DNA of 64,000 bases from Escherichia coli (lineage in GTDB: Bacteria > Pseudomonadota > Gammaproteobacteria > Enterobacterales > Enterobacteriaceae), in assembly GCF_013315695.1 (NCBI RefSeq), contig NZ_CP054353.1. One strand, given 5' to 3'. The position numbers were made by a program. Every line of letters starts with the position of its first letter. Positions within the stretch are counted from its first letter, which is position 1. Shown here piece after piece: positions 1 through 3,000 of the stretch.

Positions 1-3000
1 CGCCTTGCTCCGCGCTCAGAGAGACGTTCGCGTACTGCTGACCGTTGCTCGTTATTCAGCCTGGCAGTATGGTTACTGTCGTTTAGACGTTGTGGGCGGC
101 TCTCCTGAACTTTCTCCCGAAAAACCTGACGTTGTTCAGGTGATGCCGATTGTATACGCTGGCGGGCGTTATCACGTTGCTGTTGGTTCAGTGGGCGCTG
201 CTGTACTTTTTCCTTAAACACCTGGCGCTGTTCGGGAGTTGCAGACTGAATACGCTCACGCGCTGCCTCTCTTCGCTGCTGGTTCTGCGGGTTAGTCTGC
301 ATTTTCTCGCGAACCGCCTGGCGCTGTTCGGGAGTTGCAGACTGAATACGCTCACGCGCTGCCTCTCTTCGCTGCTGGATCTGCGGGTTAGTCTGCATTT
401 TCTCGCGGACTGCCTGGCGCTGCTCAGGAGAGGCCGACTGATAACGCTGACGAGCAGCGTCCTTTTGTTGCTGGGTCAGTGGTTGGCGACGGCTGAACTC
501 GCGGAAGTCGTCATAGCTCCCATAATGTTCCGCTTCATTAAATCGCTGTGCCGCAGCCTGACGTTGAGTATCTCGCGTAATGACTGGCGCAGTGTGTGTT
601 CGTTGCTGAAACTGACTTGCTGCTGCCTGACGCTGACTGTCGCGCGATAGAGCAGGTAACTGCGTGGCGCTCATGCCGCCGTTGACATCGGTTTGGTGAA
701 ACCGCTTTGCCATATCCTGATCATGATAGGGCACACCATCACGGTAGTTTGGATTGTGCCGCCATGCCATATTCTTATCAGTAAGATGCTCACCAGTGAT
801 ACGGTTGAAATTGTTGACGTCGATATTGATGTTGTCGCCGTTGTGTTGCCAGTCATTACCGTCACGATGACCGCCATCGTGGTGGTGATAATCATCATCG
901 TCATGATGATGATGGTCATGATCGTCATCGTCCCAGTCGATGCTGCTGAATAGTGCGTACGTGGTAGCAACGCCCATGCTATAGCCGAATCCGCGCACAA
1001 AGCTATCAACAAACGGTTCTCCGGCTGGTGGTGGCAGATAAACCGGCGGATACGCAGTATTGGCCCAGTTCCCGTAAACCACGGTTGGGTTGTAGTTGGG
1101 AATATAGACCACATCAGGATTGGTGGGCTCAATGGAAATGACGGTTGTTGCAGGCTCTGTAATGACAGGGTTGGCAGTTGAAACGGTATTGGATGGTATG
1201 ACGGGAGCCGTGACAGTCTGTGTTACCGGTACAGCTTTCTTCGTTGTGGTAATAACTTTCTGTTCGGTTGATGACTTTAGCGAGCCGGTTTGTTGCGCCA
1301 GTTGCCGCAATCGCTGTACCGAGTCCATCACGTCCTGCGACTGCGCCAGAAAAGCATCGCCCAGGTTTTGCACCCATTGCGGGTTTTCGCCCATCAATGC
1401 CATCAATTGTGGAAAGGCCACCAGTGATTTGACGCTGGCGTCCCACGGCTGGCCAGATACCGCCTGAATAGCAGCATCGCCTTGTTTAAGTGGATTATCG
1501 TGCGACCATTGCACTGCTTGAGCAACGTTTGCCGGATAGGTTGATGCCATTAACACTTGTGAAAGCAGAGAGTCGGGGTACAGCGCGACGGGCGCGACCC
1601 ATTGATCGATTTGTGCAGTGCTGAATGTAGATTTGACGACGGCAGGCGTTACGGGAGGCGCGGAAACCGTTGCAGGAAGCGTAACTGCGGAGATGTCAGG
1701 CGCAGTCTGTTGTGTCGATTGCGATTCCACAGGCGCTTCCACTGTGCGGCTTTTTATATATAGCCCGGCAGAGGCGGCACAAAGCCCGGCACTGCAAATT
1801 AGCGCCAGCACATGGGGTTTAAACGGCAAAGTCATTTTCATAATTCGGATCTCAAGGAAATCGCAATGGTCGGCGAACTGCCACCCGCAGGTGCTGTGAA
1901 TCCGAGTATAAAGAGGCCGTAGTTTAAATTTTGACTAATCTTGGGATTCGTTGAGAAAGGTGATTATCACCATGCGAATTAACGAAGTTTTTACGGAGGG
2001 AAACATTCTCTAGACTATCCTTAACGATTCAGCCACTTTTTTATGTTGCTTTTTTGTAAACAGATTAACACATCGTCAAAATCCTGCTATTCTGCCCGTT
2101 GCGGTACTGGGCATTTACCCTACAAACTGCTGTCTCACAGGAGCGTGAAGAGAATCGCCTGCCGCACTATGACAATGAGAGCGAGGAGAACCGTCGTGCT
2201 AGAAGAATACCGTAAGCACGTAGCTGAGCGTGCCGCTGAGGGGATTGCGCCCAAACCCCTGGATGCAAACCAAATGGCCGCACTTGTAGAGCTGCTGAAA
2301 AACCCGCCCGCGGGCGAAGAAGAATTCCTGTTAGATCTGTTAACCAACCGTGTTCCCCCTGGCGTCGATGAAGCCGCCTATGTCAAAGCAGGCTTCCTGG
2401 CTGCTGTCGCGAAAGGCGAAGCCAAATCCCCACTGCTGACTCCGGAAAAAGCCATCGAACTGCTGGGCACCATGCAGGGTGGTTACAACATTCATCCGCT
2501 GATCGACGCGCTGGATGATGCCAAACTGGCACCGATCGCTGCCAAAGCACTTTCTCACACACTGCTGATGTTCGATAACTTCTATGACGTAGAAGAGAAA
2601 GCGAAAGCAGGCAACGAATATGCGAAGCAGGTAATGCAGTCCTGGGCGGATGCCGAATGGTTCCTGAATCGCCCGGCGCTGGCTGAAAAACTGACCGTTA
2701 CCGTCTTCAAAGTCACTGGCGAAACCAACACCGATGACCTCTCTCCGGCACCAGATGCGTGGTCACGCCCGGATATCCCACTGCACGCGCTGGCGATGCT
2801 GAAAAACGCCCGTGAAGGTATTGAGCCAGACCAGCCAGGCGTTGTTGGTCCGATCAAACAGATTGAAGCTCTGCAACAGAAAGGTTTCCCGCTGGCGTAC
2901 GTCGGTGACGTTGTGGGTACGGGGTCTTCGCGTAAATCCGCCACGAACTCCGTACTGTGGTTTATGGGTGATGATATTCCACATGTGCCGAACAAACGCG

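What the first reader, a model, noticed from the sequence alone, without database searches (positions are those of the whole stretch)
221..508. Three tandem 96-bp repeats inside yacH
A 96-bp unit recurs at 221, 317 and 413; the first two copies are nearly identical and the third is diverged. On the coding (minus) strand this gives three consecutive 32-residue modules in the C-terminal part of the YacH-like protein. Near-identical long tandem repeats are prone to copy-number change by slipped-strand mispairing or unequal recombination, so module number may vary between strains.
Basis: seen in the sequence. Interest (0 to 1): 0.35.

Follow-up and report, generated by a model that had tools for sequence, protein, structure and literature searches.

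The report
Variable 32-residue repeats in YacH
The 3' end of the E. coli envelope gene yacH holds an in-frame 96-bp tandem repeat whose copy number really does differ between strains (2 to 5 protein modules), an ordinary kind of length polymorphism in a protein of unknown function.

Summary
It has four 32-residue modules ending in SPEQRQ (window 99-482, minus strand) plus a degenerate module-like tail, not three.

The gene is yacH (DUF3300), and the window is 100% identical to E. coli AF3. Copy number does vary. In two evenly spaced samples of 60 from 5,425 complete E. coli genomes, about 53% had four modules and about 44% had three. Two-module alleles turned up in about 1% of sampled genomes. 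Five-module alleles were not in the samples and were found in 2 complete genomes by a targeted search.

Three allele pairs are identical or nearly identical outside the array yet differ by exactly one unit, so gain and loss are recurrent and recent. However, 402 genomes carry an O157:H7-type allele and none has lost a unit. The locus is therefore not hypermutable.

The likely mechanism (inferred) is misalignment between adjacent near-identical units, by replication slippage or unequal recombination. The closest analogue is the tolA intragenic repeat. The 32-residue array is seen only in Escherichia. What the modules do is unknown.

The parts
1..1841 (-). yacH coding sequence (617 codons in the full gene). 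The ATG is at 1841-1839. The last five codons (four residues and the stop) lie beyond the left edge of the window.
   Evidence: Translation. Pfam DUF3300 E 5.9e-78. Annotated yacH in the 100% identical record NZ_OZ547117.1, between lpdA and acnB.
387..482 (-). Module 1 (aa 454-485): PLTQQQKDAARQRYQSASPEQRQAVREKMQTN
   Evidence: It is a conserved positional orthologue in all alleles compared: the first unit differs at no more than 9 of 96 nt between alleles.
291..386 (-). Module 2 (aa 486-517): PQIQQRREAARERIQSATPEQRQAVREKMQTN. One of the variable internal units.
195..290 (-). Module 3 (aa 518-549): PQNQQRREAARERIQSATPEQRQVFKEKVQQR. One of the variable internal units.
99..194 (-). Module 4 (aa 550-581): PLNQQQRDNARQRIQSASPEQRQVFREKVQES.
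   Evidence: It is conserved across most alleles (no more than 4 of 96 nt differ), but in alleles such as FDAARGOS_1256 and CE-O153H30 it is replaced by a further AVREKMQTN-type unit.
1..98 (-). Degenerate module-like C-terminal tail (RPQRLNDSNHTARLNNEQRSAVRERLSERGAR...). The L-x-x-EQR-x-A-x-RE motif is conserved in other genera.
   Evidence: Ungapped nt identity to the other units is only 24-41%, so calling it a fifth module is an inference.
221..412 (.). The near-identical direct duplication: 221-316 versus 317-412, 93 of 96 bases identical, with perfect runs of 62 and 28 nt. It is the likely substrate for slippage or unequal recombination.
413..508 (.). Its 3' half (coding sense) is the start of module 1. 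Its 5' half (DFREFSRRQ) is not repeat-like.
843..1619 (-). DUF3300 domain (aa 75-333). The repeat array lies outside it.
1755..1811 (-). The only strongly hydrophobic segment (aa 11-29, Kyte-Doolittle 19-residue mean 2.04): a signal peptide or signal anchor.
   Evidence: AlphaFold2 predicts a helix at residues 9-23.

Best explanation
This is an in-frame intragenic variable-number tandem repeat. The C-terminal part of YacH, a Cpx- and Rob-regulated envelope protein with a DUF3300 domain and no known function, is built from 32-residue Arg/Gln/Glu-rich modules that end in SPEQRQ. Each module is predicted to form two short helices. The first and last modules are stable. The internal 'AVREKMQTN...SPEQRQ' units are gained or lost one 96-nt unit at a time, so the reading frame is kept and the protein tail changes by 32 residues. 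The inferred mechanism is misalignment between adjacent near-identical units. This could be replication slippage or unequal sister-chromatid recombination, and in this window the substrate includes a 62-nt perfect direct repeat. Events recur in different allele lineages but are rare, so copy number is a lineage-structured polymorphism (mostly 3 or 4 modules) and not a fast switch. In the window's own allele, the two internal units look like a recent duplication on a 3-module background of the SMS-3-5 type.
For: Shown:
- The array and its reading frame.
- Copy-number classes confirmed by CDS length and module decomposition in fetched loci. Two modules: S1-CAM-01-C. Three: O26 RM8426, 47538, AR_0055, FDAARGOS_1256, SMS-3-5. 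Four: AF3 (the window), K-12, O157:H7, HS, MSB1_4I. Five: W24 and GCA_002516345. EC100 also gives a single-piece full-length match to the 5-module query.
- Frequencies from two evenly spaced samples of 60 genomes: four modules 34 and 30, three modules 25 and 28, two modules 0 and 1.
- Recent events. S1-CAM(2) and O26(3) have 0 mismatches in 1,428 nt upstream and in the last unit plus tail. HS(4) and W24(5) also have 0 mismatches. SMS-3-5(3) and the window allele(4) have 1 mismatch in the last ~470 nt before the array and 1 in the tail.
- Within-allele similarity. The window's two internal units differ by 3 nt from each other, but by 10 and 6 nt from their positional counterparts in K-12. They differ by 2-3 nt from the single unit of SMS-3-5.
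- Protein-level constraint. Between the old units U0 and U3, 13 of 24 differing codons are synonymous.
- Helical prediction for the modules, pLDDT 50-71.
- The tolA precedent for RecA-dependent in-frame repeat contraction in E. coli (PMC3477136).
- Regulation and phenotype of yacH (PMC9600279 and PMC7537768).
Against: No experiment or read-level data here shows slippage or recombination, so the mechanism is inferred from allele structure. 402 genomes carry an O157:H7-type allele, whose internal units differ at 8 of 96 nt, and none has lost a unit, so instability is low. Some structural alleles are not simple one-unit changes: a 45-aa and a 17-aa out-of-register duplication, a 4-aa deletion, and replacement of the last unit. 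The alleles are also mosaic. Intragenic recombination between lineages therefore also moves copy-number states around. The structure model is low confidence overall (mean pLDDT 41.7), so the module fold is only a secondary-structure statement.
Confidence: 0.85

Rival explanations
1. An old, essentially frozen polymorphism. One or two ancient indels created the 3- and 4-module alleles, which are now only inherited and shuffled by homologous recombination, with no ongoing repeat instability.
For: Copy number is uniform within clones. All sampled K-12 derivatives and O157:H7 genomes have 4 modules, and 0 of 402 O157-type alleles show a contraction. yacH alleles are deeply diverged (3-8% nt) and mosaic, which shows that recombination moves segments between lineages.
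Against: Three allele pairs have zero or one flanking mismatch yet differ by exactly one unit. Rare 2- and 5-module alleles sit on common backgrounds. Two 2-module alleles lie on backgrounds 32 mismatches apart. In the window allele and in HS the internal units are more alike within the allele than between alleles.
Confidence: 0.1
2. Assembly artefact: the differences in copy number come from collapsed or expanded repeats in assemblies.
For: Arrays of two or three identical 96-nt units (192-288 nt) exceed short-read length. Rare alleles rest on few assemblies. The HS-01 2-module allele has a 1-nt deletion at the junction and is annotated as frameshifted.
Against: The 3- versus 4-module split is seen in thousands of assemblies at 'complete genome' level and is consistent within lineages. 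The 5-module allele occurs in two independent complete genomes and one draft. In most alleles the units differ by several bases, which anchors the assembly.
Confidence: 0.03
3. Copy number is adaptive. Module number tunes a YacH envelope function, such as the response to cationic peptides or Cpx-sensed stress, as shown for TolA. The 3- and 4-module optimum is held by selection. This adds to the best explanation and does not exclude it.
For: Only 2-5 modules are seen, and 3 and 4 make up about 97% of sampled genomes. Synonymous changes dominate between the old units. yacH is CpxR-regulated and its deletion raises survival on protamine (PMC9600279). In tolA, repeat number changes stress tolerance (PMC3477136).
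Against: No phenotype is linked to yacH module number. The narrow range can equally reflect a low mutation rate and few near-identical units. yacH is interrupted in at least one strain (E69), so it is dispensable.
Confidence: 0.15
4. The repeat serves a gene on the other strand: the plus-strand ORF at 150-650 (166 aa).
For: An open frame exists on the plus strand across the array.
Against: It is the mirror image of a repetitive ORF. The minus-strand frame is continuous with a DUF3300 domain at E 5.9e-78 and is the annotated gene. Codon differences between units are enriched for synonymous changes in the minus-strand frame.
Confidence: 0.01

Closest known systems
Intragenic in-frame tandem repeat of E. 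coli tolA (Zhou, Michiels and Aertsen 2012, PMC3477136)
   Same: An in-frame tandem repeat inside a helical, charged region of an E. coli envelope protein. Copy number differs among natural isolates. Unit loss keeps the reading frame. Recombination or slippage between units is the proposed mechanism.
   Different: tolA units are 15 nt, with 8-16 copies and a measured contraction frequency of 6.9e-5. yacH units are 96 nt with 2-5 copies. No rate has been measured, and one clone (402 genomes) shows no change. No phenotype is tied to copy number.
DUF3106 (PF11304)-type small secreted proteins made of x-[ST]-P-E-Q-[RQK] helical repeats
   Same: Shared motif (R/K)ERxQxx(S/T)PEQRQA. They are the only non-YacH hits of the module profile in 1.84 billion representative proteins. 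hhalign gives probability 89% over 22 columns.
   Different: The repeat period is about 22 residues instead of 32. The YacH C-terminus scores 17.4 bits against a cut-off of 24.3, so it is not a member by Pfam's criterion. DUF3106 itself has no known function.
Simple-sequence contingency (phase-variation) loci
   Same: Repeat-mediated, reversible length change in a gene for an envelope protein.
   Different: Those use 1-8 nt units, switch expression on and off by frameshift, and change at high rates. Here the unit is 96 nt, always in frame, and stable within a clone.
MLVA locus ms11 (96-bp VNTR used for typing Shigella and E. coli, PMC8215070)
   Same: The same unit length (96 bp) and species, with variable copy number.
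   Different: The published ms11 primers match neither the window nor any fetched yacH locus, even allowing 3 mismatches. It is a different locus.

Membership tests
In-frame intragenic VNTR (protein-length polymorphism, tolA type) | Head-to-tail repeats inside an ORF, with unit length a multiple of 3 | tested here: met
   Period 96 = 32 codons, four units, no indels.
In-frame intragenic VNTR (protein-length polymorphism, tolA type) | Copy number differs among strains of the species | tested here: met
   2, 3, 4 and 5 modules. About 53% have four and 44% have three in 120 sampled complete genomes.
In-frame intragenic VNTR (protein-length polymorphism, tolA type) | Alleles that differ only in copy number, showing recurrent recent events | tested here: met
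   S1-CAM/O26 and HS/W24 have 0 flanking mismatches. SMS-3-5 and the window allele have 1+1.
In-frame intragenic VNTR (protein-length polymorphism, tolA type) | Measurable expansion or contraction in clonal populations, and its dependence on RecA/UvrD | not testable with these tools
   Needs fluctuation assays or deep long-read amplicons. The only proxy is 0 contractions among 402 genomes with an O157-type allele.
In-frame intragenic VNTR (protein-length polymorphism, tolA type) | Phenotype depends on copy number | not testable with these tools
   No data. Only whole-gene deletion phenotypes are published.
Phase-variable contingency locus | Short unit whose gain or loss shifts the frame or promoter spacing, at high rate | tested here: not met
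   The unit is 96 nt and in frame. Copy number is invariant within the O157:H7-type clone.
DUF3300 (PF11737), for the whole protein | Score above Pfam's gathering threshold | tested here: met
   261.9 bits against a cut-off of 25, aa 75-333. The repeats lie outside the domain. NCBIfam has no model.
DUF3106 (PF11304), for the repeat modules | Score above Pfam's gathering threshold | tested here: not met
   17.4 bits against a cut-off of 24.3, E 0.0063. There is motif-level similarity only.
LTXXQ / CpxP-Spy (PF07813) and Metal_resist (PF13801) | Any Pfam match of the YacH C-terminus | tested here: not met
   Not listed even at E up to 10. The PDB sequence search found nothing relevant. These families appear only as sub-threshold hits of the DUF3106-type proteins.
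MLVA locus ms11 | Published primers flank the array | tested here: not met
   No primer match with up to 3 mismatches in the window or in L001-L010.

The most novel reading that the evidence does not exclude
The SPEQRQ modules are functional binding units of a periplasmic, Cpx-controlled envelope protein and are distantly related to the DUF3106 (and possibly CpxP/Spy-like) helical repeats. E. coli lineages tune their number between 2 and 5 to trade off tolerance to cationic peptides and other envelope stresses, as TolA repeat number does. This would give a first functional handle on the DUF3300 family.
Probability: 0.12. Interest if true: 0.5.

Novelty: new member of a known kind. Interest (0 to 1): 0.28.

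Why it matters
The practical consequences are modest.
- yacH length is a cheap, PCR-sizeable lineage marker.
- The array can be mis-assembled or mis-aligned in short-read pipelines, and it inflates apparent divergence in a 'core' gene.
- Anyone studying YacH should know that K-12 carries only one of at least four length classes. YacH is Cpx- and Rob-regulated, and its deletion changes protamine survival.
- The array is seen only in Escherichia and shows concerted evolution of its internal units, so it is a clean small example of how a protein tail grows by module duplication.

It does not open a new mechanism.

Tried and rejected
1. MLVA locus ms11. I recalled a 96-bp VNTR in the Shigella/E. 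coli typing panel, confirmed its unit size and primers in PMC8215070, and tested the primers. They do not match, so it is a different locus.
2. Literature on yacH repeats. Five searches mostly returned author names (Yach, Yachdav, Yachie). None of the papers that do hold the gene name describes the repeat. The tolA paper mentions about 30 MG1655 genes with in-frame repeats as unpublished and does not name yacH.
3. Known domains for the modules. Pfam at E up to 10 gave only sub-threshold DUF3106. A PDB sequence search gave only a chance hit. NCBIfam gave nothing.
4. Structure. AlphaFold2 with a 26-sequence alignment gave mean pLDDT 41.7. I did not run fold searches because a model of that quality gives meaningless matches, and I did not spend the second prediction.
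5. A second transmembrane segment at aa 280-298, which would put the repeats in the cytoplasm. The Kyte-Doolittle mean is only 0.78, so this is not supported.
6. I discarded it and redid it in frame.
7. The antisense ORF at 150-650 was rejected (see rivals).

Full report
**What is in the sequence**

The minus strand of window 1-1841 is one open frame of 613 codons that runs off the left edge. It matches Pfam DUF3300 over residues 75-333 at E 5.9e-78. The window is 100% identical to E. coli AF3 (NZ_OZ547117.1), where the gene is annotated yacH (617 aa) and sits between lpdA and acnB.

Tandem Repeats Finder reports a 96-nt period at 221-452 (91% matches) and at 105-452 (80% matches). The repeat finder gives four in-register copies between 98 and 481. 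Identity at lag 96 over 29-508 is 0.669, against at most 0.408 in 500 triplet shuffles.

The copy at 413-508 is about 65% identical.

In protein terms there are four 32-residue modules:
- PLTQQQKDAARQRYQSASPEQRQAVREKMQTN
- PQIQQRREAARERIQSATPEQRQAVREKMQTN
- PQNQQRREAARERIQSATPEQRQVFKEKVQQR
- PLNQQQRDNARQRIQSASPEQRQVFREKVQES

A tail follows (…ARLNNEQRSAVRERLSERGARRLER) that resembles a module only if indels are allowed.

**Which strand matters**

The repeat is coding on the minus strand. In the correct codon phase, the old units U0 and U3 differ in 24 codons, of which 13 are synonymous. U1 and U3 differ in 25 codons, of which 12 are synonymous. The module sequence is therefore constrained at the protein level. 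The plus-strand ORF at 150-650 is just the mirror image of a repetitive frame.

**Does copy number vary?**

Yes. I searched the 3' end of yacH against 5,426 complete E. coli genomes, and 5,425 hold it. I listed two evenly spaced samples of 60 and read the length of the match in each record.

| Sample | 4 modules | 3 modules | 2 modules | Outlier |
|---|---|---|---|---|
| | 34 | 25 | 0 | 1 |
| | 30 | 28 | 1 | 1 |

The outlier in both samples is one highly divergent genome (AST85).

I fetched representative loci and decomposed their proteins:
- 553 aa, 2 modules: S1-CAM-01-C.
- 585-587 aa, 3 modules: O26 RM8426, 47538, AR_0055, FDAARGOS_1256 and SMS-3-5.
- 617 aa, 4 modules: AF3, MSB1_4I, K-12 MG1655, O157:H7, HS and CE-O153H30.
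- 649 aa, 5 modules: W24.

A query built from the 5-module allele found two complete genomes with a single-piece full-length match, W24 and EC100. The same allele is present in draft GCA_002516345.

**Which units change, and how recently**

In the register that ends each unit with SPEQRQ, the first unit and the 'VFKEKVQQR…' last unit are positional orthologues in most alleles: the first unit differs at no more than 9 of 96 nt and the last unit at no more than 4. The internal 'AVREKMQTN…' units number 0, 1, 2 or 3.

Three comparisons show recent events:
- S1-CAM (2 modules), O26 (3 modules) and 07_3636 (3 modules with a 12-nt deletion) have zero mismatches in the 1,428 nt upstream of the array and in the last unit plus tail.
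- HS (4) and W24 (5) also have zero mismatches there. Their internal units differ from each other by 0-1 nt.
- The window allele (4) and SMS-3-5 (3) have one mismatch in the last ~470 nt before the array and one in the tail.

In the window allele the two internal units differ by 3 nt from each other. They differ by 10 and 6 nt from the units at the same positions in K-12, and by 2-3 nt from the single internal unit of SMS-3-5. The simplest reading is a recent duplication on a 3-module background, or equivalently a recent loss in the SMS-3-5 lineage. Either way it is independent of the event that gave K-12 its four modules. A second 2-module allele (HS-01) sits on a background 32 mismatches away from S1-CAM. 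It carries a 1-nt deletion at the junction and is annotated as frameshifted, so it may be an imprecise deletion or a sequencing error.

**How fast?**

Not fast. 402 genomes carry an allele at least 99% identical to the O157:H7 4-module allele. A synthetic one-unit contraction of that allele found no genome at 99% identity or better. Every top hit was a two-piece match spanning query length + 96 nt. In that allele the internal units differ at 8 of 96 nt. All K-12 derivatives in the samples have 4 modules. The locus is a lineage-structured polymorphism with occasional changes, not a contingency locus.

**Other changes in the same region**

- A 45-residue duplication just upstream of the array (662-aa proteins P0002-P0004).
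- A 17-residue out-of-register duplication (P0090).
- A 4-residue deletion in one unit (07_3636).
- An allele family in which the 'VFKEK' unit is replaced by another 'A[AV]REKMQTN' unit (FDAARGOS_1256 and CE-O153H30).

These show that misalignment is not restricted to exact unit boundaries.

**Mechanism (inferred)**

Adjacent direct repeats 96 nt long with a 62-nt perfect run are classical substrates for two processes: slipped-strand misalignment during replication and unequal sister-chromatid exchange. This rests on established knowledge of repeat-mediated rearrangements in E. coli. The nearest worked example is tolA. Its in-frame repeat varies from 8 to 16 copies among 234 isolates and contracts at 6.9e-5. 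The contraction is RecA-dependent, stimulated in a uvrD mutant and unaffected by mutS (PMC3477136). Nothing here distinguishes slippage from recombination for yacH.

**What the modules are**

The repeat region plus tail (aa 445-617) is 19.7% Arg, 19.7% Gln and 10.4% Glu, with net charge +18. The only strongly hydrophobic segment of the protein is at residues 11-29, so the rest of the protein lies on one side of the membrane, presumably the periplasm.

AlphaFold2 with a 26-sequence alignment gave a poor model overall (mean pLDDT 41.7). It did predict each module as two helices broken at 'SA[ST]P' and 'TNP', with pLDDT 50-71 there.

A profile of 17 modules searched against 1.84 billion representative proteins found only 43 hits. 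The best are YacH fragments. Most of the other hits I read are small secreted proteins made of x[ST]PEQ[RQK] helical repeats. Seven of the ten I scanned pass Pfam's DUF3106 threshold and the other three fall just below it. Some also have sub-threshold LTXXQ and Metal_resist hits.

hhalign of the module profile against one such protein gives 89% probability over 22 columns. The YacH tail itself is below the DUF3106 threshold (17.4 against 24.3 bits). It has no LTXXQ hit, and the PDB sequence search gave only a chance match. The resemblance is a shared motif, not membership.

**Published data on yacH**

yacH transcription responds to CpxR. It rose 3.87-fold in one of the two Cpx-activating conditions listed (cpxA24 or NlpE overexpression) and is repressed by protamine. 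A yacH deletion survives protamine better than wild type (PMC9600279). yacH is down-regulated in a strain lacking the regulator Rob (PMC7537768).

**Origin**

In one genome per species across GTDB, 21 loci encode relatives. The 32-residue array, with 3-4 modules, is present in E. coli, E. albertii, E. whittamii and unnamed Escherichia species. Salmonella arizonae and the three Citrobacter amalonaticus-like genomes have a single module-like stretch (for example PPLSQQQRNAAHQRIASSTPQQRQAFRQHM). It sits in a Q/R-rich tail with other short lineage-specific repeats. The tails of the other genera (Atlantibacter, Buttiauxella, Enterobacter, Franconibacter, Yokenella) are more divergent still. The array is therefore an amplification within the Escherichia lineage.

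**Comparison with what is known, and verdict**

This is an in-frame intragenic VNTR of the tolA kind, in a gene for which I found no published description of the repeat. It is not the 96-bp MLVA locus ms11, and it is not a phase-variation locus. Interest is modest: the phenomenon is ordinary, the gene is uncharacterised, and no phenotype is attached to module number.

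Noticed in passing
window 807-935 (yacH aa 303-345); TRF row 892-928: His/Asp-rich tract (33% Asp, 23% His, net charge -13) with an imperfect 9-bp repeat. Its length varies among alleles: DDDDHDHHHH, DDDDHHH and DDDDHDHDHHHH. It may be a metal-binding segment and is a second small length polymorphism in the same gene.
   Followed up: partly
window 1002-1282 (yacH nt 560-840 from the ATG) and the whole gene: yacH alleles differ by 3-8% at the nucleotide level (46-113 mismatches in 1,428 nt), while the neighbouring lpdA protein is identical in every genome fetched. The Thr/Val/Pro-rich linker has two deeply diverged haplotypes. The window allele is a mosaic: the linker is HS-like and the 3' part is SMS-3-5-like.
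   Followed up: partly
proteins P0002-P0004, P0090; locus L006: Other in-frame rearrangements in the yacH 3' region: a 45-residue duplication upstream of the array (662 aa, seen on 3-19 contigs), a 17-residue out-of-register duplication (634 aa), and a 4-residue deletion inside a unit (581 aa).
   Followed up: partly
L038 (E. coli HS-01), yacH 1400-3060: A 2-module allele on a background 32 mismatches from the other 2-module allele. It has a 1-nt deletion exactly after the first SPEQRQ and is annotated as a frameshifted pseudogene. It is either an imprecise 191-nt deletion or an assembly error.
   Followed up: partly
L017 (E. coli E69, CP089930.1), 1501-4083: yacH is interrupted after about codon 365 by roughly 0.73 kb of foreign sequence. 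The read-through peptide ([26 protein letters not shown]) looks like an IS1 end from memory. If so, the gene is dispensable in that strain.
   Followed up: partly
L007 (FDAARGOS_1256), lpdA-yacH spacer 1450-1690: One allele family (FDAARGOS_1256, APEC O18, clone D i2 and others) has a 241-bp lpdA-yacH spacer instead of 70 bp, that is 171 extra bases of unknown nature.
   Followed up: no
L008 (E. coli AST85, NZ_AP043644.1): This genome is labelled E. coli, but its YacH is only 74% identical, 619 aa long, and has a 34-residue module period (three modules) and a longer N-terminal linker. It may belong to a cryptic Escherichia lineage.
   Followed up: no
window 534-644 (yacH aa 400-436): A short older internal duplication (RDSQRQAAASQFQQ … RDTQRQAAAQRFNE) upstream of the array. 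The RD-x-QRQAA motif is conserved in all genera examined.
   Followed up: no
window 18149-18217, inside ORF 17394-18314 (+): A 12-bp tandem repeat (5.8 copies, 87% matches) encodes (QEVR)n near the C-terminus of a YhgA-like protein (Pfam Transposase_31, E 2.8e-87). This is another in-frame repeat that could vary in copy number. A second short repeat lies at 18438-18491.
   Followed up: partly
window 60347-60433 (+) and 52179-52224 (+): Rfam matches above gathering score: the t44 sRNA (83.5 bits) and the HtrA 5'UTR thermometer (77 bits).
   Followed up: no
E. coli genome searches: Between 3 and 7 of the places matching the yacH 3' region lie on records classed as plasmids. I did not inspect them.
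   Followed up: no
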